A DNA stretch of 64,000 bases from contig CAZMMZ010000001.1 of NCBI GenBank assembly GCA_964567575.1, positions 35,800-99,799 of the forward strand, in the 5' to 3' direction. This document shows, in pieces, positions 17,615-44,367 of this stretch. Source of the stretch: Candidatus Undinarchaeota archaeon. GTDB lineage: Archaea; Undinarchaeota; Undinarchaeia; Undinarchaeales; UBA543. The translations under genes and the position numbers were made by a program. The notes beneath the pieces were generated by a model that did no database searches, was not told the DNA's origin, and worked only from the letters and a program-made list of their open reading frames with translations. Within the stretch, counting starts at the first letter, position 1. Each line of letters starts with the position of its first letter.

Positions 17615-17971
17615 ATGGATAAAAAGAAAGATGGCCGCGGCCGCCCTGTAAAATCGCTAATACGTGACCGAATGCAACAAATTGTTGATGCACTCGGTGC
17701 AGCATATGGATATGAAGTTTACAAAATTTATCGAGCTGTTTTTGAGCCAGTAAGTGTGCGTTCAATGTATTATCATTTTAAACGTGGTGTGCAGCTTGGA
17801 GAATTCAAAGAAGTTGGGGCGCGACAAGAACCTGGACCATTTACTTGGGGTCGAGAGAGTACACATATTTATTATTCTCTTGGAGACGCTGCAAGTCACA
17901 AGGCAAATGTGGAAATTCAAAACAAAATTAAGGAAATTGGATTTGAATATAGAGATCCTTTGAAATTATAA
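17615..17971 (+). CDS. small putative DNA-binding protein (AT-hook-like GRGRP N-terminus)
   Basis: 118 aa beginning MDKKKDGRGRPVKSLIRDR. Ends at the boundary of the predicted origin. Confidence 0.5.
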   Translation: MDKKKDGRGRPVKSLIRDRMQQIVDALGAAYGYEVYKIYRAVFEPVSVRSMYYHFKRGVQLGEFKEVGARQEPGPFTWGRESTHIYYSLGDAASHKANVEIQNKIKEIGFEYRDPLKL

Positions 17972-18504
17972 AGAATTGTTTAATTTTTTGAAAATTTAAT
18001 AAAATGTTTATTTATTTTCCATATTGTAAATAAAAGATAAACACAGACTCCTTTGTTTCCTTTGGAAATATATATGTTGTTGTGGGTTTTATTTTTTTTT
18101 ATTATTATATTCTATATGGTTAATAAATATATATATAAGGGCTTTTTCACAACCAAGATTTCATGTGGAAATCACAAACAACCCCTTAATTTCGTGTGGA
18201 CGGCTCTTTGTTTCGAGTTTTTTGAAGTTTTTCACCTAATTTTTAACACCTACGTTGATGTTAATTTTTTTTGCACTGGAAAACATACTCACCTACACAT
18301 AAAAACTAACATAAAACCACAACCAAGAACCCCTTTATTTCCACTGAAACACATTTTACCCCCATTTCATCTGAAAACCTAAAAATAGTTCCATAAGAAA
18401 CAAAGGGGACACACCCTCACAACAAAGCTTATATACCTTAATTTCATATGCACATTGTAAGCAGGAAGTGGGGAATGGCACTTTAATGTTTACTAACTCT
18501 ATGG
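17972..18504. other. predicted chromosomal replication origin (oriC) with ORB-like repeats and a DUE
   Basis: 533-bp non-coding gap directly upstream of orc1/cdc6. ORB-like TTTC[CA]nnTGGAAA elements at 18056, 18159, 18190, 18269, 18338, 18365 and 18388. CACAACCAAGA repeated at 18148 and 18318. Confidence 0.6.
18087..18138. other. candidate duplex unwinding element (near-pure A/T tract)
   Basis: 52 nt with only 3 G/C (ttttattttttttt attattatat tctatatggt taataaatat atatataa), between ORB-like elements at 18056 and 18159. Confidence 0.5.
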
Positions 18505-18519
18505 GTGGGGTTTAGTTAC

Positions 18520-19713
18520 ATGGCACAACAAAATTTAAATGATCTTTTTGACGACTTCTTAAACAGAGCTCCGAATTTCACAAGAAAGGATGCGCTCCAA
18601 GACACATATACACCAAGTCAGGTTCCACACAGAACTGAACAAATTAACCAACTTGCATCAATTTTAGTGTCTGCTCTTCGTAATGAAAAACCAAGTAATG
18701 TTTTCATTTACGGAAAAACAGGCACAGGAAAAACACTTGTGTCTCGATATGTTGGCCAAGAACTAGAAAAAAAAGCCGCAACAACTAACACAGCACTCAA
18801 AACATGCTACATAAATTGTAAACTTGATAAAATCAACACAGCATACAGATTATTCGCGCGCTTCTTAGCAGAATTTGGTGAAGAAGTCCCACCAACCGGA
18901 TTACCAACCGATGAAGTTTATAGACATTTTCTTGATACAATGCACAAGAAAAAAGGAATATTCCTTTTAATTCTTGATGAAATTGATGCGCTCACAGACA
19001 CAGATCTTCTTTACAATTTATCTCGAATAAACACAGAATTAAAAGACAGTAGAGTTAGTTTAATCGGCATTTCAAATGATTTGTCTTTTACAAACAATCT
19101 TGACCCACGAATTAAGTCATCCTTATCTGAAGAAGAACTGGTTTTTCCACCATACAATGCAACACAAATTAAAGACATCTTATCTCAACGCGCAGAACTA
19201 GCACTTCAAAAAGACATACTTGAAGAAGATGTTATTCCAAAATGCGCAGCTCTCGCCGCACAAGAACACGGAGATGCCCGCAGGGCCCTTGATCTTCTTC
19301 GGGTTGCGTGCGAAATCGCAGAACGAACTGGCGACAAAAAAATCACAGTAATCCATGTTGACGATGCTCAGAAAAAACTTGATATTGATCGTGTTGTTGA
19401 AGTTGTTAAAACACAACCACGACAATCACAACTAGTTCTTTACAGCATTCTTTACTTAGCAGATCTAAATAAAGAAGACATTGGAACTGGGGATGTTTAT
19501 GATGTTTACCAAACTTTCTGTAAACAATCTAAATTAACTCCATTAACACAACGCCGCGTTTCTGATTTAATTTCAGAATTGGACATGCTTGGTCTTATTA
19601 CCTCTTCAGTTATTTCTATGGGACGATATGGACGAACTAGGAAAATAAAACTGGAGATGTCCGGCCGAGCTCTTGAAACCTCACGGGAGATTCTAAAAGG
19701 AGAATTGTTATGA
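18520..19713 (+). CDS. cdc6: Orc1/Cdc6 replication initiator
   Basis: AAA+ Walker A GKTGTGKT, Walker B LILDEID, and a C-terminal winged helix. ATG at 18520 is preferred over the GTG at 18505. Confidence 0.9.
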   Translation: MAQQNLNDLFDDFLNRAPNFTRKDALQDTYTPSQVPHRTEQINQLASILVSALRNEKPSNVFIYGKTGTGKTLVSRYVGQELEKKAATTNTALKTCYINCKLDKINTAYRLFARFLAEFGEEVPPTGLPTDEVYRHFLDTMHKKKGIFLLILDEIDALTDTDLLYNLSRINTELKDSRVSLIGISNDLSFTNNLDPRIKSSLSEEELVFPPYNATQIKDILSQRAELALQKDILEEDVIPKCAALAAQEHGDARRALDLLRVACEIAERTGDKKITVIHVDDAQKKLDIDRVVEVVKTQPRQSQLVLYSILYLADLNKEDIGTGDVYDVYQTFCKQSKLTPLTQRRVSDLISELDMLGLITSSVISMGRYGRTRKIKLEMSGRALETSREILKGELL

Positions 19714-21137
19714 GCCTTCAACAGGAGGCATTGCAGGTTTTTCTCAAAAACAACTTTCAAATTTCAAAACCAGCGCTTGACCTTCTTCTCACACAAGAGA
19801 AACCAATTGAATCAGCAAACCTATTAATTAAAGAAATTTCTCCAGACATTTTAACAATACTTCCAGAACACATTGAAAAACAAAAAGAACCAGAACCACC
19901 TACAACGGCGCTTGTTGATGGTTTTAAAAAAAATAAACCAATAAAAAGTGTTCGCGATTTATCAGAGTTTTTTAATAATCGATATACTTATTTTAGAAAA
20001 CTTTTAGCTGGCCGTTTACCAAGCCCAACAACACTATCAAATTTGAAAAGATCAAACAAAGAAAAGATGAGCACAATTGGTCTTGTTTCTAATAAACGCT
20101 CAACAATAAAAGGAAATATCTTTATTGAGCTTGAAGATCCAACAGGAACTTTTAGTGTAGTTGTATCAAAACCAGAAATTAAGAAAAAAGCCGAGACCTT
20201 AGTTATGGATGAAGTTATTGGGGTGATGGGAACCACAGGAGATAACATTCTGTATGTTGATGATTTTATTTGGCCGGATGTTCCAATTATCCGAGAGCCA
20301 AAAACACTAGAAAACGAAACATATGCTGCGTTTTTCTCTGATACACACATTGGTAGTAAAAAATTCATGCGAAAAGAATTCGGCAGATTCCTCTCTTGGA
20401 TAAAAGGAGAAATTGGTGGCGAAGATGAAACAGATATGGTTAAAAAAGTAAAATATTGTTTTGTTGCTGGGGATATTGTTGATGGTATTGGGGTTTATCC
20501 AAAACAAAACGAAGAACTTGAAATTGGAAACATTGAAGATCAATATCATTTAGCAGCTGAACTTTTCTCAGAAATTCCAAAACACATTCAGTTAGTTTTT
20601 TCACCGGGAAACCACGATTTCCTTCGCGGTGGCCAACCACAGCCAGCACTTGATCCAGAAGTTGCTGCGCCACTTTACGAACTTCGAAATGCAATGCACG
20701 TTGGAAACCCATCAACAATAAAAATTGAAGAACACGATAGGGGTGGAATTAATGTGTTGATGTATCATGGAGTTAGTTTTGATTCAATGATAACTGCAGA
20801 TTCGTCTTTGAAAGATGGTTATACAAATCCTGTTGATGTTATGAAATCTTTATTGAAACGCCGACATCTTTCACCACCATATGATACCGGTTTAGTAGCA
20901 AGCGGCGAGGATCAAATGATAATCAGAACAGTTCCTGATGTTTTCCACACAGGTCACATCCACTACAACGGAAATGGGATGTATCGCGGAACAACGTTAA
21001 TTAATAGTGGAACTTGGCAAGCGCAAACAGCATTCCAAAAACTTTGTGGAAACGAGCCAACACCCTGTGTCTTACCACTTTTGAATTTACAAAACCGCAA
21101 ACTCAAGTTAATGAATTTCAACTATAATGAAAACTGA
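19710..21137 (+). CDS. dp1: DNA polymerase II (PolD) small subunit DP1
   Basis: Calcineurin-like phosphoesterase motifs FFSDTHIGSK, VAGDIVDG, SPGNHD, HTGHIH. 4-nt overlap with orc1/cdc6. Confidence 0.9.
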   Translation: MSLQQEALQVFLKNNFQISKPALDLLLTQEKPIESANLLIKEISPDILTILPEHIEKQKEPEPPTTALVDGFKKNKPIKSVRDLSEFFNNRYTYFRKLLAGRLPSPTTLSNLKRSNKEKMSTIGLVSNKRSTIKGNIFIELEDPTGTFSVVVSKPEIKKKAETLVMDEVIGVMGTTGDNILYVDDFIWPDVPIIREPKTLENETYAAFFSDTHIGSKKFMRKEFGRFLSWIKGEIGGEDETDMVKKVKYCFVAGDIVDGIGVYPKQNEELEIGNIEDQYHLAAELFSEIPKHIQLVFSPGNHDFLRGGQPQPALDPEVAAPLYELRNAMHVGNPSTIKIEEHDRGGINVLMYHGVSFDSMITADSSLKDGYTNPVDVMKSLLKRRHLSPPYDTGLVASGEDQMIIRTVPDVFHTGHIHYNGNGMYRGTTLINSGTWQAQTAFQKLCGNEPTPCVLPLLNLQNRKLKLMNFNYNEN

Positions 21138-24100
21138 AGAATATTTCGATTTGCTAGAAAAGCAGACAAACATAGAATATAGTCTTGCTAGCCAGGCAAG
21201 GAAAAATGGGTGCGATCCGTCTGAAGAACCTGAGATTTATTTAGCAAAAGATTTAGCAGAAAAAGTTGAGGGTCTTATTGAATTGAAAGGGCTCGCAGAT
21301 ATTATCCGAAAAGTTTCATCTGAAACAGAAAGTGAAGTTGCTCGGGCATTCAAAATCGCAGAGCAAGTTGCAAAAAATGAATCAGACAAAGAAAAAGCAG
21401 CGGACAAAGCAATTCGCGCAGGTTTAGCATATTTAACACAAGGGGCAGTTGCTGCGCCACTTGAAGGTATCGCAAAAGTTAAACTCCATAAAAATTCAGA
21501 CAGTTCAGAATATATTTCAATTTATTTCGCAGGTCCAATCCGCGCAGCAGGAGGAACTGCTGAAGCGCTTTGTGTTATTGTTGCTGATTACGTTCGGAAA
21601 GTTCTTGGTCTTGAAAAATATCAACCAACATCTCAGGAAATTTCCAGATACTTCGAAGAAATTCAATGGTACAACCGAAGAACCCACTTGCAGTATATGC
21701 CATCTGAAGAAGAAGTTAAAATCATTATTAAAAACACACCAATTTGTGTTGATGGCGAGCCCACAGAAAGGTATGAAGTTGCTAACTTCCGAGATCTTGG
21801 GCGTGTTGAAACAAACAGAGTTCGTGGTGGTATGTGTTTAGTTGTTAGTGAGGGTCTTGCTCAGAAAGCTGCAAAACTATGGAAGCGGATGAAACCAATT
21901 CAAAAAGAGTTTGATTTGGATTGGACGTGGCTCACAGAATTACTTGAAAAAAAACACCCTAAAACCGAATCTGAAAAATCTGGTGAATCATACACCCTTG
22001 AAACAAGCGAAGAAGACCAAGAAGATCAGGGTGGTAATAAAAAATATTTGCGTGAAGTTCCAGCTGGTCGTCCAGTTTTTTCACATTACGCCCGTCAAGG
22101 CGGTTTCCGCCTTCGATATGGACGCACACGGGCTAGTGGTTACGCAGCTGCAGGAATGAATCCTGCAACAATGTATACTCTTGGGAAATTTGTTGCAATT
22201 GGAACTCAAATTCGTTTGGAAATGCCAGGCAAAGCAGCAATCATAACTCCATGTAATACTGTTGAAGGTCCACTTGTTAAATTAAAATCAGGTGAAGTTC
22301 GCAGATTGTCAACAATGGAAGAATCAATTGAAGTTGAAAAAGAAGTTGAGTCAATACTTCAACTCGGCGACCTTTTAATTTCTGCTGGCGATTTCCTTGA
22401 AAATAATCAGAAACTTGCAAAGCCAGCATTTTGCGAAGAATGGTGGGCACTACTTCTCGAAGCAAAATCACCTGAAGAAGCAAAACCATTTTTAGAAAAC
22501 ATTCTTACAAAAGTTTCATTTGAAAAAGCAGTTGAACTTTCAAAGAAATATGAAATTCCACTTCACCCAAAACACACACTTTATTGGAGCGGGTGTTTAA
22601 AGAAAAACATTCAAAAGGTTATTGAACTTTTGAGTGTGGATACAACCAAAATAAAAAATGATCCAGATATCAAAACCACAATAGAAAATCTTGGGGTTTG
22701 TCACAAAGTAGAAAACAACACTATTACCATTAACGAAGAACACCACAAGGCATTACTGTTTTGTCTTGGTTTTCCAGAAACAAGCCGAGAAGAAATTCAA
22801 AAACAAATTTCGGATTCTCAAAATCTTCTTTGTGGTGTTAACAAACTTTGTTCAATTCAAATTAAAAATCGCGCGCCAACTTATATTGGTGCAAGAATGG
22901 GGCGTCCAGAAAAAGCAAAGCCACGGAAAACAACTCCACCATTCAACACAATTTTTCCAACAGGTGCGAAAAAAGGCAGGATTCGTGATATTGTTAAAAT
23001 CGCAAATACAACAAGAGTTGGGGTTACAGAAATTGCAAAATATAAATGTACCACCTGCGGAACGTTCTCAATTTATCCAAAATGTTCTACTTGTGGCTCA
23101 AGAACAGAACTTACAACAACCTGTCCAAGATGCAGTCGCCCAATTCCTGCCGAACAATGTCCGGTTTGTGGGGTTTCAACAATTTCTTTTGAAAAGAAAT
23201 CTGTGAATTTTAAAGAGACTCTTGATGCAGCATTAAAGAATCTAAATCTTTCATCCCCAGAAAAAATAAAAGGGATTCTTGGAATGGCATCCAAAACCAA
23301 AACCCCGGAAGCCCTTGAGAAAGGCATTCTTAGGGCAAAATATAATTTATTTGTATTCAAAGATGGAACAATCCGATTTGATAGCACAGATGCACCACTT
23401 ACACATTTCACACCCAATGAAGTTGGATCTCCAATCAATAAACTCAAGAAACTCGGATACACAGAAGATTACAAAGGCGAACCATTAGAACGTGGCGACC
23501 AACTACTTCCACTCAAATCACAAGATATTCTTTTATCCGACCACGGAGACGATTCTGCAGCTAAATGTTTCATTAATACTACAAAATTCATTGACGATCT
23601 TCTTCTCAGTCATTACAAACTTAAACCATATTATAAAGTCAAAAAGAAAATCGACCTTATTGGAAAAATGATTATTGGTCTTGCGCCCCACACTTCAACA
23701 GGAACTGTTGGTAGAATTGTTGGTTTCACCAAAGCAAGAGTTGGTTATGCTCACCCAGCATTCCACGACGCAAAACGTAGAGATTGTGATGGTGATGAAG
23801 ATGCAGTTCTTTTACTTCTTGATGCATTCCTAAATTTCTCAAGAGCATTCCTTCCTGAAAAGCGCGGTGGAAAAATGGATGCGCCACTTGTTGTTACAAC
23901 ACGATTAACACCAACAGAACTTGATGATGAGATTTACGATATTGATATTGTTCCAAATTACGGAATTCCTTTTTATGAAGCTGCAGAAATAAACACAGAT
24001 CCTGGTAAAGTTGGGTTGAAAACAGTTGAATCAATTTTAGAGGACGATGAAGCTCTTCTTAATTGGCCATTTACACACCACACCGCAGATATCAACGATG

Positions 24101-24519
24101 GGCCTATTGTTAATACATATTCTACTGGAGAAATGCTGGAAAAACTCAACAAACAGCTCGATCTTGCAGAAAAGAGTCGAGCAGTTGATGAGAGGGATGT
24201 TGCTGAAAAAATTCTTTCTTCACACTTCCTTCCTGATATTAAAGGGAATCTCAGAACATTTTCAAAACAAAAAGTTCGGTGTACAAAATGCAATACAAAA
24301 TACCGAAGGCCACCACTTTCTTGTGTTTGCTCAAACTGCGGGAATAAATTAACAATGACAGTACACGAGGGATCAATAAAGAAATATCTTGAAATTTCAA
24401 AGCAGATGATTAAAAAATATAATATTGATCCGTATCTTGCTCAACAAATTACAATGTTTAGCAAAGCACTTGATTCTATATTTGGAATTGATCCGCAGAA
24501 AAAATTAGGAGCATTTTAA
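21127..24519 (+). CDS. dp2: DNA polymerase II (PolD) large subunit DP2
   Basis: 1130 aa. The N-terminus YFDLLEKQTNIEYSLASQARKNGCDPSEEPEIYLAKDLAEKVEGL is typical of DP2, with several CxxC zinc modules. No intein-sized insertion apparent. Confidence 0.9.
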   Translation: MKTEEYFDLLEKQTNIEYSLASQARKNGCDPSEEPEIYLAKDLAEKVEGLIELKGLADIIRKVSSETESEVARAFKIAEQVAKNESDKEKAADKAIRAGLAYLTQGAVAAPLEGIAKVKLHKNSDSSEYISIYFAGPIRAAGGTAEALCVIVADYVRKVLGLEKYQPTSQEISRYFEEIQWYNRRTHLQYMPSEEEVKIIIKNTPICVDGEPTERYEVANFRDLGRVETNRVRGGMCLVVSEGLAQKAAKLWKRMKPIQKEFDLDWTWLTELLEKKHPKTESEKSGESYTLETSEEDQEDQGGNKKYLREVPAGRPVFSHYARQGGFRLRYGRTRASGYAAAGMNPATMYTLGKFVAIGTQIRLEMPGKAAIITPCNTVEGPLVKLKSGEVRRLSTMEESIEVEKEVESILQLGDLLISAGDFLENNQKLAKPAFCEEWWALLLEAKSPEEAKPFLENILTKVSFEKAVELSKKYEIPLHPKHTLYWSGCLKKNIQKVIELLSVDTTKIKNDPDIKTTIENLGVCHKVENNTITINEEHHKALLFCLGFPETSREEIQKQISDSQNLLCGVNKLCSIQIKNRAPTYIGARMGRPEKAKPRKTTPPFNTIFPTGAKKGRIRDIVKIANTTRVGVTEIAKYKCTTCGTFSIYPKCSTCGSRTELTTTCPRCSRPIPAEQCPVCGVSTISFEKKSVNFKETLDAALKNLNLSSPEKIKGILGMASKTKTPEALEKGILRAKYNLFVFKDGTIRFDSTDAPLTHFTPNEVGSPINKLKKLGYTEDYKGEPLERGDQLLPLKSQDILLSDHGDDSAAKCFINTTKFIDDLLLSHYKLKPYYKVKKKIDLIGKMIIGLAPHTSTGTVGRIVGFTKARVGYAHPAFHDAKRRDCDGDEDAVLLLLDAFLNFSRAFLPEKRGGKMDAPLVVTTRLTPTELDDEIYDIDIVPNYGIPFYEAAEINTDPGKVGLKTVESILEDDEALLNWPFTHHTADINDGPIVNTYSTGEMLEKLNKQLDLAEKSRAVDERDVAEKILSSHFLPDIKGNLRTFSKQKVRCTKCNTKYRRPPLSCVCSNCGNKLTMTVHEGSIKKYLEISKQMIKKYNIDPYLAQQITMFSKALDSIFGIDPQKKLGAF

Positions 24520-39965: not shown

Positions 39966-40337
39966 TCAACAATTACTGGGTTTCCTCCCCCCCTCTACCT
40001 GTACGAGTCGGATTAATACTTCTTTTGACTTATTTGAAGGAAGTATCTCATTTACTATTGATTTTTCTGTTAGTTTATTCTCAAGATATGTGGCTTTTTC
40101 TTGAAAGCTGTCACATTTATTATACATTTTAACAATCTCTTGTATTTCATCAACTATCCTTTCTGGTTTCATAGTAAATACACTATAGTTGCACTTGCTT
40201 TTAACTTTTTCGCTTATCTTCTTGAAATTTTTCCTTGAAATCCCCTTGTCTATACACTTGTATAGAAGGGGTTGTTTGATTAATTGTTTAGTTGATTTAG
40301 CTGCCAATTCCACAGCATAATCGCTATGCACCGGCAC
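39966..40337 (-). CDS. hypothetical protein
   Basis: 123-aa ORF with no recognised motif. Confidence 0.45.
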   Translation of the reverse strand: MPVHSDYAVELAAKSTKQLIKQPLLYKCIDKGISRKNFKKISEKVKSKCNYSVFTMKPERIVDEIQEIVKMYNKCDSFQEKATYLENKLTEKSIVNEILPSNKSKEVLIRLVQVEGGRKPSNC

Positions 40338-40442
40338 TATTCACAGTCCCCTTCAAAGGCCTTGGAAAATTCTCTTTATTTTCACACACAAATTCCACAC
40401 ACAGTCTAATTCACACATAATTTATTCGTAAATGTTTGTAGT

Positions 40443-40722
40443 ATTTTTTCGGTCTCATCTCTCACAAACGCGTATTTCACACACGAAATATGTATATATC
40501 TCTAGATCCTACTATATTCCTCTCACAAATGGCGCCGGTAGTTTAGCCTGGTATGACATGAGCTTCCCAAGCTTATAACCCGAGTTCGAATCTCGGCCGG
40601 CGCACCACTCCTTTCTCACAAACTACCCTATTTCTCACATAATAGGGACATTTGTCACTTATTTAACTCTCACAAACGAAGTTTTTAGTACATTTCTGGT
40701 GCGTCGCTTGCTATCGGTTTTG
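40443..40722. repeat. left arm of a long imperfect inverted repeat with an octamer array CTCACAAA
   Basis: CTCACAAA at 40461, 40522, 40615 and 40669; CTCACATA at 40634. 16-nt block TAACTCTCACAAACGA at 40664-40679. 19-nt block TCGCTTGCTATCGGTTTTG at 40704-40722. Confidence 0.8.
40532..40607 (+). tRNA. tRNA-Gly (anticodon CCC), CCA encoded
   Basis: Hand fold: acceptor GCGCCGG/CCGGCGC, anticodon stem TGAGC/GCTTA with loop TTCCCAA, T-arm CCGAG-TTCGAAT-CTCGG. Confidence 0.85.
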
Positions 40723-40824
40723 TAAAATGGGTTGGTTTTAACTCTCAACACTTCAAGCACCGCAAACAACCACGGAAAGTATATTCTCTACAATATAAAT
40801 TCTACATCTCACAGCAAAAATCCT

Positions 40825-40848
40825 AAAAGGTGACGTTCGTCACCTTTT
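40825..40848. repeat. perfect 24-bp palindrome AAAAGGTGACGTTCGTCACCTTTT
   Basis: Read directly. Contains TGACG/CGTCA half-sites that recur downstream. Confidence 0.85.
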
Positions 40849-41150
40849 GTCTATATTCTCTGATTAAGGGGGATATTCGGTGCATTTCCTGATATTTGGC
40901 AGATCTTGTATATTCTCTTTATTTTCACACATTTCATACTGAAACAACTCTTTTAGTACAGATCTTATAGTGGATAACCCGTCATGCGACAGATGCGACG
41001 CATCTGACGTATTTTTAATGACATATGTCTTGCTTTTATTTTTTACACTACAACTTTTGTTCGTGAGCTAAAATTTCTCCAAAATCCGTCATACGACACG
41101 TCATTTCAAAAACAGAAAGGTATTTAAACCAGAAATCACCATCTATCACT

Positions 41151-41708
41151 ATGAGTTTGCTCTCAATTTTCAGACGAAAAGACAAGAAAGCGTCGCATGA
41201 CGCGTCATGCGACACGTCAACTAGCAAAGATGACACGTCAGATCCGTCATCTTACGCTTTTGATGTAACAAGGGAAGTTGAGCATACTCAGCCTAAGTTA
41301 GAGGACCCCTTGATATCGATTTCTCGACAACTTACACAGCTACAATTCCAGGTTGGTGAGTTAAAACCAAGCATAGAGTCTGGAGTTGAAAGCCTCCGTG
41401 AAGACCATTACCGTATTATTGAGGAGCAAGCCAACAGCGTGAAAGATTATAAAGAACATTTGTCCAATCGTTTGCAAAACCTGAAGCAAGCGACACATTC
41501 GGCAGAGGACGAAATTGAGAAACTAGAAATAGATCAGAAAATTGTTGAAGCCCTTGAGGGAGGGGAGAAGCGCGCTGTTGAACTTGCTAACCAACTTGAA
41601 GCAAGTCGACAATATGTGTCTGACAGATTGAAAGTTTTGCTTGAATTAAAGCAAGTTGAGAAAATTAAACGAAGTCGTAAAGTGTATTATACCTTGAAAT
41701 CTCATTAA
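41151..41708 (+). CDS. coiled-coil protein with a C-terminal winged-helix DNA-binding domain
   Basis: 185 aa. The C-terminus RAVELANQLEASRQYVSDRLKVLLELKQVEKIKRSRKVYYTL is ArsR/MarR-like. The 5' end is encoded by palindromic DNA, so the start is uncertain. Confidence 0.55.
   Translation: MSLLSIFRRKDKKASHDASCDTSTSKDDTSDPSSYAFDVTREVEHTQPKLEDPLISISRQLTQLQFQVGELKPSIESGVESLREDHYRIIEEQANSVKDYKEHLSNRLQNLKQATHSAEDEIEKLEIDQKIVEALEGGEKRAVELANQLEASRQYVSDRLKVLLELKQVEKIKRSRKVYYTLKSH
41192..41213. repeat. perfect 22-bp palindrome GTCGCATGACGCGTCATGCGAC
   Basis: Read directly. It explains why the ORFs on both strands encode SHDASCD. Confidence 0.9.
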
Positions 41709-41722
41709 AAATCGGGCGCAGC

Positions 41723-41830
41723 CTACTTCTTTTGTCGTGCTGCCTTTTTCTTACGAGTGCGGATTTTCTTCTTTGTAGTTCTCCATCTCTCGCGTCCTTT
41801 CTTCTTAAAATTGCGTGGTCTACGTTTCAT
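41723..41830 (-). CDS. 35-aa polybasic peptide, possibly ribosomal protein eL41-like
   Basis: MKRRPRNFKKKGRERWRTTKKKIRTRKKKAARQKK, with a TATA-like aaatataaagg about 30 nt upstream. The eL41 resemblance is from memory only. Confidence 0.4.
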   Translation of the reverse strand: MKRRPRNFKKKGRERWRTTKKKIRTRKKKAARQKK

Positions 41831-41914
41831 CGTGCCTTTCTGTTGAAATAAGTCCTTTATATTTGTTTGCACAAACTGGAAAAGTATAAAAACAAAGATC
41901 TCTATATGTAGTAT

Positions 41915-42217
41915 ATGGAAGTTGCATATCTCTTTGTTGAAGTGCGGTCGCAGAAATTTAAAGAAGGTATGCAGGCGTTTGGTTTTAAGAAGAAAGACAC
42001 CAGGGGAACTAAATATTTATCGGAAAAGAAGAACTTTGAGAACTTACTTGCAAAGAAAATTTCTAATATTCCTGAGTGTTGGCTTATTGTAACGCCACTT
42101 GAAAATGAATCGGTGTTAACGGCATTTTCTAAATCCATTTATATTAAAGACAGGGATGAATTATTAAAAAATTACAGAGTTTTTTCGAATGTTGGTTCAT
42201 TCGAAGTAAAACCTTAG
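41915..42217 (+). CDS. hypothetical protein
   Basis: 100-aa ORF. Its stop is immediately followed by the third copy of the 19-nt block. Confidence 0.4.
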   Translation: MEVAYLFVEVRSQKFKEGMQAFGFKKKDTRGTKYLSEKKNFENLLAKKISNIPECWLIVTPLENESVLTAFSKSIYIKDRDELLKNYRVFSNVGSFEVKP

Positions 42218-42236
42218 TCGCTTGCTATTGGTTTTG
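42218..42236. repeat. third (internal) copy of the 19-nt block, one mismatch
   Basis: TCGCTTGCTATTGGTTTTG versus TCGCTTGCTATCGGTTTTG at 40704 (+) and 43900-43918 (-). Confidence 0.8.
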
Positions 42237-42285
42237 CAGCATACAAAACTATAAAAACCCATAAAACTATTAGTGTTTGATTAAT

Positions 42286-42567
42286 ATGAGTGATGATCCA
42301 AAAGTAAGAATTTTTTCCATTTCAGGGAGAACAGCCCCTGTCAAAACACTACTTGAAAACAGGTTGTTTTGTGAAGGCTAAGACAAAATCTACTACTGCA
42401 ACGCCCTTGGTAAAACTATAACTTGTGTACCTGGATTTAAAAATACTTGGTCAATTATTGGGGAATTTGACACCCCTGGTATTCGGACGTTTCATTATGA
42501 GTTCAACAAACTATCGAATAAGTTAAATGTGAAGTGTTCTGACTATGTGACCCCTGTTTTTAAATAA
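42286..42567 (+). pseudogene. 93-codon reading frame interrupted by one in-frame TAA (42379-42381)
   Basis: ATG 42286, 31 codons, TAA, then 61 further stop-free codons in the same frame with no internal Met, ending at TAA 42565-42567. Confidence 0.35.
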
Positions 42568-42574
42568 TATATAA

Positions 42575-43168
42575 TCAGTCGCTTCCTCTCGCTTTTGCAG
42601 TTTGAACTAATGAATCATATTCACTTGCAATATGCGTCCAGAATTTACTGAATTGTGTACTAGGTCTCACAATTTTCTTATAGAATTTCTGCTTTGAGTG
42701 TTCGTGATGGAATTCTTCACGCTCTAAACGCACCATTCCAACACGTCGCAAACGTGGCAGAACAACATTGTAAAACGTTGCTTTTGAGAAGTCTTTTTCA
42801 CGAATAAACGCTCCAATATCATCTCCACGCATCACATGATTCGCGAACAACTTATTCATGAATTCTATTGCGATCAAATGATATTTTCGCTGATATTTCG
42901 GTGGAAACACCAATTCAAGGATTTGATTGAGCTCCAGCCTAACGTTTTTGTGATATGCCCAATCTCCGCGCAATCTCTTAATATCATCGAGCCACATTGA
43001 CTCTTTGCTTGGAACACCCCGTGATGCAGGACCCCCGACTGAAATTGTTGGTTTTTTTCGCTGATCTGCTTCAACAACTTGCACAACTTCGGATGCGTAC
43101 TCTATATCATTATGGTGTTTTTTATCCATGGTTTGCGGTATGCTATCTTGGTATTTAAAACTTACCAT
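42575..43168 (-). CDS. hypothetical protein, possible C-terminal winged helix
   Basis: 197 aa. SKATFYNVVLPRLRRVGMVRLE is a wHTH-like segment. The ATG lies at the centre of palindrome TACCATAATGGTA (43163-43175). Confidence 0.5.
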   Translation of the reverse strand: MVSFKYQDSIPQTMDKKHHNDIEYASEVVQVVEADQRKKPTISVGGPASRGVPSKESMWLDDIKRLRGDWAYHKNVRLELNQILELVFPPKYQRKYHLIAIEFMNKLFANHVMRGDDIGAFIREKDFSKATFYNVVLPRLRRVGMVRLEREEFHHEHSKQKFYKKIVRPSTQFSKFWTHIASEYDSLVQTAKARGSD

Positions 43169-43200
43169 AATGGTAGACTCGGCCAGGTACTCGCGCGCCC

Positions 43201-43392
43201 AAAAACCTGTTTCGGTTTACTATTATGGTGTGGTTGCGCGATTTCTATTGACAGGGGCTAGGGTACACGGTTAACAAGATGTTTTTCCCAAAGAGTTTGA
43301 GAAAAACCTGTCGGCAGTTTATTGTAATGGTGTTATTTATGGGATTTTAAATTTCAAAAAAATAGAAAGGGTGAAAAACACCGTTATGGTGT
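43201..43392. repeat. imperfect ~32-nt direct repeats (AAAAACCTGT..CGG..TTTAyTrTwATGGTGT)
   Basis: Copies at 43201-43233 and 43302-43333, and a partial copy at 43374-43392. TTATGGTGT also occurs at 43110. Confidence 0.7.
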
Positions 43393-43401
43393 TTTTCGTG
43401 A

Positions 43402-43746
43402 TTATCCGCCTTCGAAAGTTTCTTGTTCTTTGATCTGCAGTGTTAAACTCTTGAAAAGCAAATTTTCAAAATCTGAAGCAAGACTGTGTCCAGATTCTGT
43501 AAGTTTGATATATTTCACACGGCCGTCCTTGTTAAATTCAACAAGTCCATGTTCCTGCATCTTTTGAAGCAGTTTCACAGTGTGAGCATACGTGCAATCG
43601 ATCTTTTTTGCAAGATTTGACGCGTATGCATCTTTATCAGTACGTTTTATGTGTACAAGCAGCCTAGCTGGCTTTTTTCTTAAAAACATTTCTTCTAGTT
43701 CTGTATTAACATTCATTAGTAAACCCCTCAAATGTTCTAACTCCAC
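43402..43746 (-). CDS. winged-helix transcriptional regulator (MarR/ArsR/TrmB-like)
   Basis: 114 aa: YASNLAKKIDCTYAHTVKLLQKMQEHGLVEFNKDGRVKYIKLTESG. Confidence 0.65.
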   Translation of the reverse strand: MELEHLRGLLMNVNTELEEMFLRKKPARLLVHIKRTDKDAYASNLAKKIDCTYAHTVKLLQKMQEHGLVEFNKDGRVKYIKLTESGHSLASDFENLLFKSLTLQIKEQETFEGG

Positions 43747-43899
43747 AAAAACTAGGCCGATTCACACCAATTTCCACCCAAAGTCACTGGTTGCGAGAGT
43801 TAGATTTTATATCCTCCAAAACAGGTTTTGGAAAGACATCATTTCTAAAGCGGTGTTCCTATATAACCTTTTTCTTTTCTGCAAATTCCTTGCTTTTTG

Positions 43900-44219
43900 C
43901 AAAACCGATAGCAAGCGAATCATCTGGGGTAATACTCAAATCCTCGTTTGTGAGAGTTACGGCTACTACTTAAACGCGAATAATTTGAGATCAGGGAAAA
44001 ATGTTAGAGAAAATGTAAAAATTAGTAATTTGTGAGACCGCAAAAATAGGTCTCACCCCAGATTTTTGTGAGGATGCAAAATGTGAGAAAACACCTCCTT
44101 GCTTGCGCATGGAGATGCGGTTTGTGAGGGTCCGATGGGGAATTTACTGGATTTGAATGACCCAAATTTACCCCCAAACTTGAAAATATTTTTGTGAGAG
44201 TTTCGAAACCGAAAAAATG
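43900..44219. repeat. right arm of the long imperfect inverted repeat with an octamer array TTTGTGAG
   Basis: TTTGTGAG at 43948, 44030, 44066, 44122 and 44192; AATGTGAG at 44081. Reverse complements of the 19-nt block at 43900-43918 and the 16-nt block at 43945-43960. Confidence 0.8.
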
Positions 44220-44367
44220 AACCTCACATCCCCATATGAAAACAACATTATGGTTTTTCAAAAACAAATTCAGCATATCGCAGCATAGTGGTTTCATTAA
44301 ATCTATAATGGGTTTTGTAAAACCTGTGTCTTGTTTTATTGGGTTCTATACAAGTGTATAGACAACC

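What the first reader, a model, noticed from the sequence alone, without database searches (positions are those of the whole stretch)
40443..44219. 3.8-kb cassette bracketed by ~300-bp inverted arms, each an array of the octamer CTCACAAA, with tRNA-Gly inside the left arm
Seen directly:
- The + strand carries CTCACAAA at 40461, 40522, 40615 and 40669, plus CTCACATA at 40634.
- Its reverse complement TTTGTGAG occurs at 43948, 44030, 44066, 44122 and 44192, plus AATGTGAG at 44081.
- That is nine exact copies of one 8-mer in two clusters of about 250 bp with strictly opposite polarity. By eye I found no other exact copy in the window.
- The outermost copies share extended context (ATTTTTTCGGTyTC...CTCTCACAAA at 40443 versus the reverse complement at 44219).
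- The innermost copies sit in a perfect 16-mer, so the whole clusters are homologous inverted arms.
- tRNA-Gly(CCC) sits between copies 2 and 3 of the left arm. The right arm has no tRNA.

The 3.2-kb interior encodes only small proteins (three with winged helices), a polybasic peptide and a broken ORF, and has unusually long non-coding stretches for this compact genome.

Inference: multi-site inverted ends are the architecture of transposon ends (Tn7/Mu-like multi-site ends), casposon or linear-element terminal repeats, invertible segments, or a captured extrachromosomal origin. None of the usual enzymes (transposase, integrase, Cas1, Rep) is recognisable. Either this is a non-autonomous or decayed element, or the octamer array belongs to an undescribed DNA-protein system, perhaps read by one of the encoded wHTH proteins.
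Basis: partly seen in the sequence, partly recalled or inferred. Interest (0 to 1): 0.85.

Follow-up and report, generated by a model that had tools for sequence, protein, structure and literature searches.

The report
Mirrored binding-site arrays flanking archaeal genes
Two mirror-image stretches of about 0.5 kb, each carrying several copies of one short DNA word, bracket a small conserved gene cluster (three DNA-binding proteins plus a ribosomal protein) in tiny-genome Undinarchaeota-like archaea; it is a fixed chromosomal feature, most likely a docking platform for one of those proteins, and not a jumping gene.

Summary
All nine exact CTCACAAA copies in the 64-kb window lie in two clusters of opposite polarity, and tRNA-Gly(CCC) sits inside the left one.

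The arms are longer than reported, about 480 bp each. Each runs from an 18-bp terminal palindrome to a 64-bp inner block.

The same architecture recurs in five other lineages, out to Ca. Undinarchaeum (SerRS 61% identical). It always flanks the same winged-helix genes (E, D, A), always between the same housekeeping neighbours. Core-motif polarity is 57 inward to 6 outward.

Between species, only discrete blocks in the arms are conserved: the sites and a few composite blocks.

The interior is not decayed. The "polybasic peptide" is ribosomal protein eL41, and D is as conserved as SerRS. I found no transposase, no target duplication, and no viral or plasmid relatives.

The canonical oriC (orc1/cdc6-polD) lies 22 kb away, and the cassette has no unwinding element. 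The tRNA is incidental, since it is elsewhere in Undinarchaeum. The cassette is inverted in one lineage.

Best reading: arrays of a roughly 12-bp asymmetric site, (T)AACT-CTCACA-AA, bound by a locus-encoded winged-helix protein. They would serve auto-regulation and arm pairing. The function is inferred, not shown.

The parts
40249..40266 (.). Left terminal palindrome TCTATACA-CT-TGTATAGA, the outer boundary of the unit
   Evidence: Inverted repeat I1, 31 nt, 87%. The half-site occurs only here and at the right end in the 64-kb window. Conserved at both ends in L013, at the sequenced end in L150 and on one side in L016. An invariant block in alignments A3 and A4.
40443..40468 (+). Left outer composite: TTTTTTCGGT, 7 nt, then CTCTCACAAA (site 1)
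   Evidence: The same composite occurs in the right arm, in L016 (both arms) and in L155.
40522..40529 (+). Site 2, lying between a TATA-like element and the 5' end of the tRNA
   Evidence: The L013 ortholog has the octamer directly abutting the tRNA.
40532..40607 (+). tRNA-Gly(CCC), embedded in the arm but not integral to it
   Evidence: ARAGORN; Rfam 60.1 bits. In L155 the same tRNA is 5 kb from the arm, and it is absent from the L156 locus.
40615..40641 (+). Sites 3 (CTCACAAA) and 4 (CTCACATA)
40664..40727 (+). Left inner block: AACTCTCACAAACG (site 5; the 14-mer is invariant in six arms of three species), a 28-nt spacer, then the 24-nt box TCGCTTGCTATCGGTTTTGTAAAA
   Evidence: Inverted repeats I2 and I3. 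An invariant block in A3 and A4.
40780..40849 (+). Conserved promoter-like block (TATATTCTCT, AATATAAAT, then CTCACAGC at 40808), followed by the hairpin AAAAGGTGACGTTCGTCACCTTTT at 40825
   Evidence: Conserved between the window and L013 in A4; coordinates.
41151..41708 (+). Gene A: conserved N-terminal MGLLSIF-KKKKK, disordered linker, one 84-residue helix, C-terminal ArsR-type winged helix
   Evidence: Pfam and NCBIfam ArsR-type HTH, weak hits. Family of 7 clusters. AF2 model, pLDDT 80. Foldseek matches CzrA/SmtB and AspA. Orthologs in L013, L016, L152, L155 and L156.
   Evidence: Conserved next to A in six lineages. Matches Thermococcales ribosome L41e chains: E = 1.5e-8 for the L155 ortholog and 1.5e-3 for the window copy.
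41915..42217 (+). Gene C, 100 aa, lineage-specific, no family match
   Evidence: No ortholog in L013 or L016.
42288..42560 (+). Broken ORF (pseudogene)
   Evidence: Several in-frame stops.
42575..43168 (-). Gene D (true start probably M14, at 43129): disordered N-terminus with a conserved SRGVPSKE motif, a winged helix, and a long C-terminal helix
   Evidence: Alignment A2. AF2 model, pLDDT 72 overall and above 90 in the winged helix. Weak fold matches to TFIIE-alpha/TFE, AbfR2 and RTP. Family of only about 70 clusters among 1.84 billion representatives. 85% identical to the L013 ortholog, against 84% for SerRS.
43402..43746 (-). Gene E (start probably the ATG at 43716): MarR/ArsR-like winged helix
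   Evidence: Pfam HTH_27, E = 1.6e-7. Orthologs in all related loci.
43795..43875 (-). E promoter block: TTATATAGG, the palindrome TCCAAAAC-CT-GTTTTGGA (43815-43832), GATATAAAA, then AACTCTCGC (43795-43801) between the TATA element and the expected start
   Evidence: Conserved block in A3; coordinates; palindromes. L155 and L156 have CTCACATG overlapping the E start codon.
43895..43959 (-). Right inner block, mirror of 40664-40727 (includes the innermost right-arm site)
   Evidence: Inverted repeats I2 and I3.
44029..44087 (-). E-side composite: CTCACATT, CTCACAAA, GGTGAGACC-TATTTTTGCGGT-CTCACAAA
   Evidence: Conserved in L013 and L150 and in the E-side arm of L016.
44121..44128 (-). Right-arm site between the E-side composite and the outer composite
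44191..44219 (-). Right outer composite: TTTTTTCGGT, 9 nt, then CTCTCACAAA
44345..44362 (.). Right terminal palindrome

Best explanation
The arms are two homologous control regions of about 0.5 kb, in mirror image. They lie at the two ends of a conserved, vertically inherited chromosomal gene module of Undinarchaeota-related DPANN archaea. The module is E->D-> ... rpl41e ... <-A, and its two ends are transcribed inward.

Each arm carries 5-7 co-oriented copies of a stand-alone asymmetric site of about 12 bp, (T)AACT-CTCACA-AA, plus a terminal palindrome.

Proposed mechanism. A winged-helix protein encoded in the module binds these sites. By elimination this is most likely D, because the E and A promoters carry their own palindromic and GTCAY-type motifs. 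One copy lies between the TATA element and the start of the E-D operon; in the window clade another lies at the tRNA-Gly promoter. Occupancy should therefore repress or tune those promoters, which would be autoregulation. The upstream arrays would give cooperative, high-occupancy binding and allow the two arms to pair, looping out and insulating the 3-kb interior.

The inverted symmetry follows from convergent transcription plus sequence exchange between the arms. As a by-product it makes the segment prone to inversion.

Shown: the arrays, their polarity, their conservation, their promoter positions, the chromosomal and housekeeping nature of the locus, and one inversion.

Inferred: which protein binds, repression, and pairing or looping.
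For: - Enrichment of the core in the arms of six loci (P from 1e-4 to 1e-14) and polarity of 57 inward to 6 outward (P = 2e-11).
- The arrays are kept in L013, L150, L016, L155 and L156, wherever E, D and A sit between PRC/M50/Hef and SerRS.
- Between species only discrete blocks are conserved: the sites and a few composite blocks. Spacers and spacing are free.
- A weight matrix of 49 sites shows a 12-bp motif with no fixed TATA signal upstream. The sites are therefore binding sites and not initiators.
- A site lies between the TATA element and the start of E in five lineages, and directly before the tRNA in the window and L013.
- Three winged-helix proteins are encoded between the arms.
- D is under strong constraint (85% identity against 84% for SerRS) and belongs to a tiny lineage-specific family.
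- Distinct motifs sit at the E promoter (palindrome) and at the A promoter (GTCAY/TTACAT repeats).
Against: - No binding data exist, and the assignment to D is by elimination only.
- D and E also occur without arrays: L018, L020, and the E side of L152.
- D's recognition helix is invariant across lineages with and without arrays.
- The A-side array lies 200-450 bp upstream of the A promoter, which is far for an archaeal operator.
- Five to seven irregularly spaced copies are more than simple autoregulation needs.
Confidence: 0.45

Rival explanations
1. Origin-proximal chromosome anchoring or centromere-like site. The arrays are bound by A, whose layout would tether this locus, 22 kb from oriC, to the membrane for segregation. 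That layout is an N-terminal hydrophobic-polybasic peptide, a linker, an 84-residue coiled-coil helix and a winged helix. The analogues are RacA/ram, Noc/NBS, RocS and RicO/ricS. This reading could coexist with autoregulation.
For: - A's architecture.
- A occurs in every lineage with CTCACA sites and was not found in the array-free loci L018 and L020.
- The locus is 22 kb from the orc1/cdc6 origin.
- The position is conserved, and there appears to be one locus per genome in the sequence available.
- RicO has the same domain logic and binds a specific motif near oriC.
Against: - Membrane binding by the N-terminal peptide is only a guess from its sequence.
- No partition NTPase is encoded in the locus.
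- Known anchoring sites are palindromic and dispersed over hundreds of kb, not two tight polar arrays.
- A's own promoter carries a different repeat, GTCAY/TTACAT.
- A evolves fast (47% identity between the window and L013, against 85% for D).
Confidence: 0.2
2. Ends of a transposon-like or other mobile element with multi-site terminal inverted repeats, now non-autonomous or domesticated.
For: - The arms are inverted, about 480 bp long, and carry several co-oriented sites and a terminal palindrome.
- The interior gene content varies between lineages: C and a pseudogene here, extra small genes in L016, toxin-antitoxin pairs near D in L154.
- There are relics resembling the ends of gene D.
Against: - No transposase, integrase, Cas1, PolB or Rep.
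- No target-site duplication.
- The flanks are the same in six lineages.
- An essential rpl41e gene and a strongly conserved D lie inside.
- No arrays in viral contigs, and no relatives of D or A in viral contigs or of D in plasmids.
- Only one real hit in the metagenome contig scan.
- The octamers surround a pre-existing tRNA, which implies the sites arose in place.
Confidence: 0.1
3. A second (captured) replication origin, bipartite like the DnaA-box clusters that flank dnaA, with a winged-helix initiator (D) encoded between the clusters.
For: - Two clusters of asymmetric 8-mers with irregular spacing flank the genes of DNA-binding proteins.
- D is strongly conserved.
- L016 has an 88% AT tract next to its inner site.
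Against: - The canonical origin, with orc1/cdc6-polD, ORB-like GTGGAAAT repeats and 88-92% AT tracts, is at 17.9-18.5 kb.
- The cassette's maximum is 80% AT, and that lies inside a coding region.
- The motif is unrelated to ORB.
- D occurs in tightly packed operons with no non-coding DNA in L018 and L020.
- There is no local inflection in GC skew.
Confidence: 0.07
4. A programmed invertible segment: a genetic switch in which the arms are recombination sites.
For: - Inverted arms.
- The interior, together with the inner parts of the arms, is inverted relative to collinear flanks in L016 compared with the window, L013, L155 and L156.
Against: - No recombinase is encoded in or beside the unit.
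- All 7 contigs of two species that span an arm have the same orientation.
- Only one inversion is seen across a deep phylogeny, which fits rare homologous recombination between 0.5-kb inverted repeats.
- Inversion would not change any promoter-gene connection, because the promoters move with their genes.
Confidence: 0.05
5. A polar replication-fork (or transcription) barrier of the Ter/RTP type. Two opposed groups of polar sites, bound by a small winged-helix dimer encoded next to them, would form a trap.
For: - Site polarity is strict, and the two groups are opposed.
- D has the same general layout as RTP, a winged helix followed by a long C-terminal helix, and RTP is among its weak fold matches (1f4k, E = 0.07).
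- In B. subtilis the rtp gene likewise sits beside inverted Ter sites (my own knowledge, not checked here).
Against: - The locus is 22 kb from oriC and not opposite it. A true trap there would make the two replichores grossly unequal.
- The fold match is generic.
- No archaeal fork trap is known.
Confidence: 0.05

Closest known systems
Autoregulated DNA-binding-protein genes flanked by clusters of their own asymmetric sites (DnaA-box clusters around dnaA in B. subtilis and H. pylori bipartite origins)
   Same: Short asymmetric 8-9-mers, irregular spacing, two clusters on either side of the regulator's gene, and some copies in promoter positions.
   Different: No AAA+ initiator and no unwinding element. 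The canonical oriC is elsewhere in the window. Polarity here is strict and mirror-symmetric.
B. subtilis RTP and its inverted Ter sites beside the rtp gene
   Same: A small winged-helix protein with a C-terminal dimerisation helix, encoded beside inverted polar sites that it binds and through which it autoregulates.
   Different: Ter sites are about 30 bp and each binds two dimers. They lie at the terminus, not near the origin. Similarity to D is weak (Foldseek E = 0.07).
Multi-site transposon ends (Tn7 TnsB sites, Mu L1-3/R1-3, Ac/Ds and En/Spm subterminal repeats)
   Same: Inverted arms of a few hundred bp, each with several co-oriented short binding sites.
   Different: No transposase and no target duplication. 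The position is fixed and syntenic across a phylum-level lineage, and essential genes lie inside.
Plasmid centromeres bound by small wHTH/RHH proteins (parC/ParR, tubC/TubR, pNOB8 AspA)
   Same: Arrays of short repeats next to the gene of a small DNA-binding protein, which also serve as its operator. A's winged helix matches AspA (E = 5e-3, a generic ArsR fold).
   Different: Those repeats are contiguous, regularly spaced and mostly direct, and they work with a ParA, ParM or TubZ motor, which is absent here.
Origin-proximal DNA-membrane or pole tethers (RacA/ram, Noc/NBS, RocS, RicO/ricS)
   Same: A has a DNA-binding domain, a coiled coil and a putative membrane peptide. The sites lie near oriC.
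   Different: Their sites are palindromic and scattered over 100-700 kb. All are bacterial. Membrane binding by A has not been tested.

Membership tests
Transposon or TIR-bounded mobile element | Terminal inverted repeats | tested here: met
   Homologous inverted arms of about 480 bp.
Transposon or TIR-bounded mobile element | Transposase or integrase encoded, or recognisable relic | tested here: not met
   Pfam, PHROGs and NCBIfam scans of the interior and flanking ORFs found none.
Transposon or TIR-bounded mobile element | Target-site duplication at the ends | tested here: not met
   No direct repeat abuts the ends in the window or in L013.
Transposon or TIR-bounded mobile element | Variable genomic location, multiple copies, or empty sites in relatives | tested here: not met
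   The flanks are the same in six lineages. There is one locus in 64 kb. The metagenome scan found no other real locus.
Casposon | Cas1 integrase and family B polymerase | tested here: not met
   Absent.
Archaeal oriC | ORB or mini-ORB repeats next to an orc1/cdc6 gene | tested here: not met
   orc1/cdc6 lies at 18505-19713 with GTGGAAAT repeats upstream. The octamer is unrelated to these repeats.
Archaeal oriC | AT-rich duplex-unwinding element between inverted sites | tested here: not met
   The cassette's maximum is 80% AT, inside coding sequence, against 88-92% at the orc1 origin.
Archaeal oriC | Strand-composition switch at the site | tested here: inconclusive
   No inflection at 40-44 kb, but skew in a 64-kb window mainly follows gene orientation.
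Programmed invertible segment | Inverted repeats, with the segment found in both orientations | tested here: inconclusive
   Inverted in L016 relative to four other lineages. Within species, all 7 contigs have one orientation.
Programmed invertible segment | Site-specific recombinase in or beside the segment | tested here: not met
   None found.
Partition (par) locus | Repeat array adjacent to the gene of a centromere-binding protein | tested here: met
   The arrays abut the winged-helix genes E and A.
Partition (par) locus | ParA, ParM or TubZ NTPase in the operon | tested here: not met
   Absent from the cassette and from the immediate flanks.
Ter/RTP-type fork trap | Opposed groups of polar sites | tested here: met
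   57 inward to 6 outward.
Ter/RTP-type fork trap | Location in the terminus region; homolog of Tus or RTP | tested here: not met
   The locus is 22 kb from the origin. D matches RTP only weakly (E = 0.07, TM 0.27/0.42).
Transcription-factor operator array (general kind) | Sites overlapping core promoters of the regulator's own operon | tested here: met
   A site lies between the TATA element and the start of E in five lineages, and at the tRNA-Gly promoter in two.
Transcription-factor operator array (general kind) | Demonstrated binding by the encoded protein | not testable with these tools
   Needs EMSA, DAP-seq or ChIP.

The most novel reading that the evidence does not exclude
The arrays are a new archaeal chromosome-organising element, specific to Undinarchaeota-like DPANN. 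It would be an origin-proximal centromere or membrane-anchoring site, or a polar barrier or insulator. Its polar (T)AACTCTCACAAA sites would be read by a previously undescribed winged-helix family (D) and/or by a membrane-tethering coiled-coil wHTH protein (A).
Probability: 0.22. Interest if true: 0.8.

Novelty: new variant of a known kind. Interest (0 to 1): 0.5.

Why it matters
Almost nothing is known about cis-acting chromosome elements in DPANN archaea, which are uncultured. Here the comparison across species marks out a specific, testable DNA-protein system.

What makes it testable:
- a 12-bp polar site;
- two mirror arrays;
- terminal palindromes;
- three small candidate binding proteins, one from a family of only about 70 sequence clusters;
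- a location beside oriC, around an essential ribosomal protein gene.

If the arrays turn out to organise or anchor the chromosome, this would be a new kind of archaeal centromere or insulator.

If they are only operators, the locus still corrects an attractive but wrong call of a mobile element. It also annotates eL41, which gene callers and profile libraries missed.

Tried and rejected
The archaeal hits L060, L061, L070 (regular arrays) and L062 (low complexity) are irrelevant. L097 (Micrarchaeota) has three 42-bp tandem repeats beside a tRNA end and is not the same architecture.
2. The metagenome scan with the composite pattern returned 9 loci. Only L149 (the same contig as L015) is real; the rest are coding-sequence chance hits or tandem repeats. 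The viral scan found nothing.
3. Octamer as transcription initiator: rejected, because there is no fixed upstream TATA signal.
4. Symmetric strand bias of the arms, as a possible RNA-level or replication signature: rejected. The G-poor bias belongs to the arm on the PRC-flank side whichever gene it abuts.
5. The 24-nt box as a recombination site between cassette modules: set aside. It resembles the 3' coding end of D (...AKARGSD*), and the boxes read outward as ...KPIASD/E, so they look like relics of duplicated gene ends. The match is only modestly significant.
6. D could not be placed in any named family. Tried: Pfam, PHROGs, NCBIfam, a PDB profile search, Foldseek against the PDB, and a 1.84-billion-protein profile search.
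7. The Rfam gathering scan found only tRNAs.
8. The Undinarchaeota genome paper does not mention the locus.

Full report
OBSERVATION

CTCACAAA occurs nine times in the 64-kb window, and every copy lies in one of two clusters. Four are on the + strand at 40461-40669 and five are on the - strand at 43947-44191. Variant copies lie at 40634 (CTCACATA) and 44080-44087 (CTCACATT on the - strand).

Nine copies in total is not unusual; shuffles give 5.1 +/- 2.2. The clustering and the polarity are unusual. The core CTCACA occurs 12 times in 998 bp of arms against 0.36 expected (P = 8e-15), and 11 of the 12 face inward.

tRNA-Gly(CCC) at 40532-40607 is confirmed. The perfect 16-mer and the outer TTTTTTCGGT context are confirmed, and the arms align end to end.

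The homologous inverted region is larger than reported. Outward it reaches an 18-bp palindrome, TCTATACA-NN-TGTATAGA (40249-40266 and 44345-44362). Inward it reaches a 64-bp block that ends in a 24-nt box, 96% complementary between the arms.

ORGANISM AND SURROUNDINGS

The window is from a DPANN archaeon related to Undinarchaeota. Its SerRS is 61% identical to that of Ca. Undinarchaeum marinum and 60% identical to a Naiadarchaeales sequence. The closest relatives (83-84%) are unnamed.

The window also contains orc1/cdc6 (18505-19713) followed by both PolD subunits. Upstream of orc1/cdc6 is a non-coding region with GTGGAAAT repeats and 88-92% AT tracts. That is the canonical origin, 22 kb from the cassette.

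COMPARATIVE EVIDENCE

I used homologs of the interior proteins D and A to reach other contigs.

- The architecture recurs in L013/L015 (D 85% identical), L150 (80%), L016 (59%), and L155 and L156 (50%; Undinarchaeum/Undinarchaeales).
- In each of these loci, inward-facing CTCACA arrays flank the same three winged-helix genes (E, D, A).
- Where the contig extends far enough, the flanks are the same: Hef, M50, PRC and a 134-aa gene on one side and SerRS on the other.
- Over all six loci the core motif faces inward 57 times and outward 6 times (P = 2e-11).
- The 14-mer AACTCTCACAAACG is invariant at the innermost position of six arms in three species.
- The outer composite, TTTTTTCGGT followed by CTCACA after 0-9 nt, survives even in L155.
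- Alignments of orthologous arms show conservation only in discrete blocks: the palindrome, each site, a GTGAGACC-TATTTTTKCGGT-CTCACA composite, the inner block, and the promoter blocks. Spacers and spacing are free.
- A weight matrix of 49 sites gives (T)AACT-CTCACA-AA with no fixed upstream TATA signal, so these are stand-alone binding sites.

Limits of the distribution:
- L152/L153 keep tRNA-Gly-E-D-eL41-A in other flanks, with only two sites.
- L018 and L020 carry D (L018 also E) with no arrays.
- The dense arrays are therefore an elaboration tied to this chromosomal locus.

WHAT THE INTERIOR IS

- A (41151-41708) has a conserved N-terminal MGLLSIF-KKKKK, a disordered linker, one 84-residue helix and an ArsR-type winged helix.
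- The "polybasic peptide" (41723-41830, - strand) is conserved next to A in six lineages. It is ribosomal protein eL41/L41e: E = 1.5e-8 for the L155 ortholog and 1.5e-3 for the window copy, against Thermococcales ribosome chains.
- C is lineage-specific, and 42288-42560 is a pseudogene.
- D has a disordered N-terminus with a conserved SRGVPSKE motif, a winged helix and a long C-terminal helix. Its fold matches (TFE/TFIIE-alpha, AbfR2, RTP) are weak. Its family has only about 70 clusters among 1.84 billion representatives. It is as conserved as SerRS: 85% against 84% between the window and L013.
- E is a MarR/ArsR-like winged helix.

WHAT IT IS NOT

Mobile element.
- There is no transposase, integrase, Cas1, PolB or Rep.
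- There is no target duplication.
- The syntenic position is fixed, and essential genes lie inside.
- There are no arrays in viral contigs. D and A have no relatives in viral contigs, and D has none in plasmids.
- The octamers lie on both sides of a tRNA that sits elsewhere in the outgroup: 5 kb away in L155 and absent from the L156 locus. The sites therefore arose in place and did not arrive as a preformed end.

Origin of replication.
- The canonical oriC is elsewhere in the window.
- The cassette has no unwinding tract.
- The motif is unrelated to ORB.

INVERSION

The flanks are collinear in all lineages. The interior runs A-> <-D <-E in the window, L013, L155 and L156, but E-> D-> <-A in L016. 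The E-side composite stays on the E side in L016, so the inversion took the inner parts of the arms with it.

The tRNA in L016 has the same acceptor stem and TTCCCA(A) anticodon loop as the window's tRNA-Gly. It has a 22-nt insert at the canonical 37/38 position. ARAGORN calls it Trp or Ser depending on its settings, and Rfam misses it. It lies on the opposite strand from the window's tRNA, so more than one rearrangement occurred.

Within species, all seven contigs that span an arm have one orientation. I read the inversion as rare homologous recombination between 0.5-kb inverted repeats and not as a switch.

MECHANISM

A site copy lies between a TATA element and the expected start of the E-D operon. 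In the window, L013 and L150 this copy is AACTCTC(G/A)C. In L155 and L156 it is CTCACATG overlapping the start codon. In the window and L013 an octamer also lies directly before tRNA-Gly. In archaea this position is typical of a repressor operator (established knowledge).

The E promoter also has its own perfect palindrome (TCCAAAAC-NN-GTTTTGGA; TGTCAAC-N5-GTTGACA in L016). The A promoter region has GTCAY/TTACAT repeats in every lineage. There are thus three motif classes and three winged-helix proteins. The most economical assignment gives the polar site to D. This is inference only.

I therefore favour arrays of binding sites for a locus-encoded winged-helix protein. They would autoregulate the module and, by pairing the arms, loop out or insulate the interior (confidence 0.45).

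The main rival is an origin-proximal anchoring or centromere-like role through A. A's domain order resembles the bacterial tethers RacA, Noc, RocS and RicO; I give this 0.2. The remaining rivals are a domesticated mobile element (0.1), a second origin (0.07), a switch (0.05) and a Ter/RTP-like barrier (0.05).

NOVELTY

I found no description of this locus; the Undinarchaeota genome paper does not mention it. The general kind, site arrays read by small winged-helix proteins, is known. What has no close precedent is the combination seen here:
- strict mirror polarity;
- arms of about 0.5 kb with terminal palindromes;
- phylum-level conservation beside oriC;
- a new winged-helix family.

I therefore rate it a new variant of a known kind and of moderate interest.

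Noticed in passing
window 17900-24519: Probable canonical replication origin. A non-coding region of about 530 bp (17972-18504) has ORB-like ATGTGGAAAT repeats (17907, 18163), an inverted repeat (18050/18385) and 88-92% AT tracts. It lies just upstream of orc1/cdc6 (18505-19713), PolD small subunit (19710-21137) and PolD large subunit (21127-24519). The cumulative GC skew has a local maximum here.
   Followed up: partly
window 41723-41830 (-): The 35-aa polybasic ORF is ribosomal protein eL41 (L41e/eS32). Pfam and NCBIfam return no match even at E = 10, but it matches the L41e chains of Thermococcales ribosome structures and is conserved in six lineages.
   Followed up: yes
window 40369-40388 and 40912-40931: A perfect 20-nt direct repeat, ATTCTCTTTATTTTCACACA, 543 bp apart, brackets the octamer part of the left arm and the tRNA. 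The word TTCACACA occurs 4 times in 40381-40931, and TATATTCTCT occurs 3 times in 40780-40918. Neither the 20-mer's core (TTTATTTTCACACA) nor TTCACACA was found at the corresponding places in L013, L016, L150 or L155.
   Followed up: partly
window 40704, 42218, 42579 (+); 43918, 41493 (-): The 24-nt box TCGCTTGCTATCGGTTTTG resembles the reverse complement of D's 3' coding end (...AKARGSD*). The boxes at the inner ends of the arms read outward as ...(A/T)KPIASD/E. In L150 a 203-aa gene downstream of D ends with D's last 18 residues. These look like relics of duplicated gene ends.
   Followed up: partly
window 40980-41214: CGTCATGCGACA-type repeats lie upstream of gene A and across its first codons (40980, 41087, 41203). 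Related GTCAY/TTACAT repeats occur upstream of A in L013, L016, L155 and L156. They are a candidate operator for A itself.
   Followed up: partly
L016 5384-5479 (-): An intron-containing tRNA is called Trp(cca) or Ser(aga) by ARAGORN, depending on its settings, and is missed by Rfam at the gathering threshold. Its acceptor stem and TTCCCA(A) loop match the window's tRNA-Gly(CCC), and it has a 22-nt insert at position 37/38.
   Followed up: partly
L155 9568-10000; L156 9403-10000; window 40268-40800: The arm on the PRC-flank side is strongly G-poor on the + strand (G 7-10% in L155 and L156; GC skew -0.6 to -0.2), whichever gene it abuts. The other arm shows no skew.
   Followed up: no
L155 12405/12420; L156 9439/9454 and 12383/12398: In the Undinarchaeum-type loci, a head-to-head pair of the motif itself (CTCACA-N4-TGTGAG) lies at the outer boundary of both arms in L156 and of the E-side arm in L155. 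It takes the place of the TCTATACA-NN-TGTATAGA palindrome of the window clade.
   Followed up: no
L097 1-720: A GC-rich Micrarchaeota contig has a tRNA 3' end, then three 42-bp tandem repeats each containing TTTGTGAG, then a TFE-alpha-like gene. The link to the present system is unclear.
   Followed up: no
window 43105-43394: ATTATGGTGTTT is the coding sequence for D's N-terminal KHHN. A near copy (43383) and a 20-nt inverted repeat (43105-43124 / 43156-43175) lie in and near the D-E spacer. They could be relics of D's 5' end or an operator.
   Followed up: no
L154 274-2380: In one lineage, D is surrounded by toxin-antitoxin pairs (VapB/PIN, RHH/ParE), with three CTCACA copies at the contig start. 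The neighbourhood of D seems to accumulate accessory genes.
   Followed up: no
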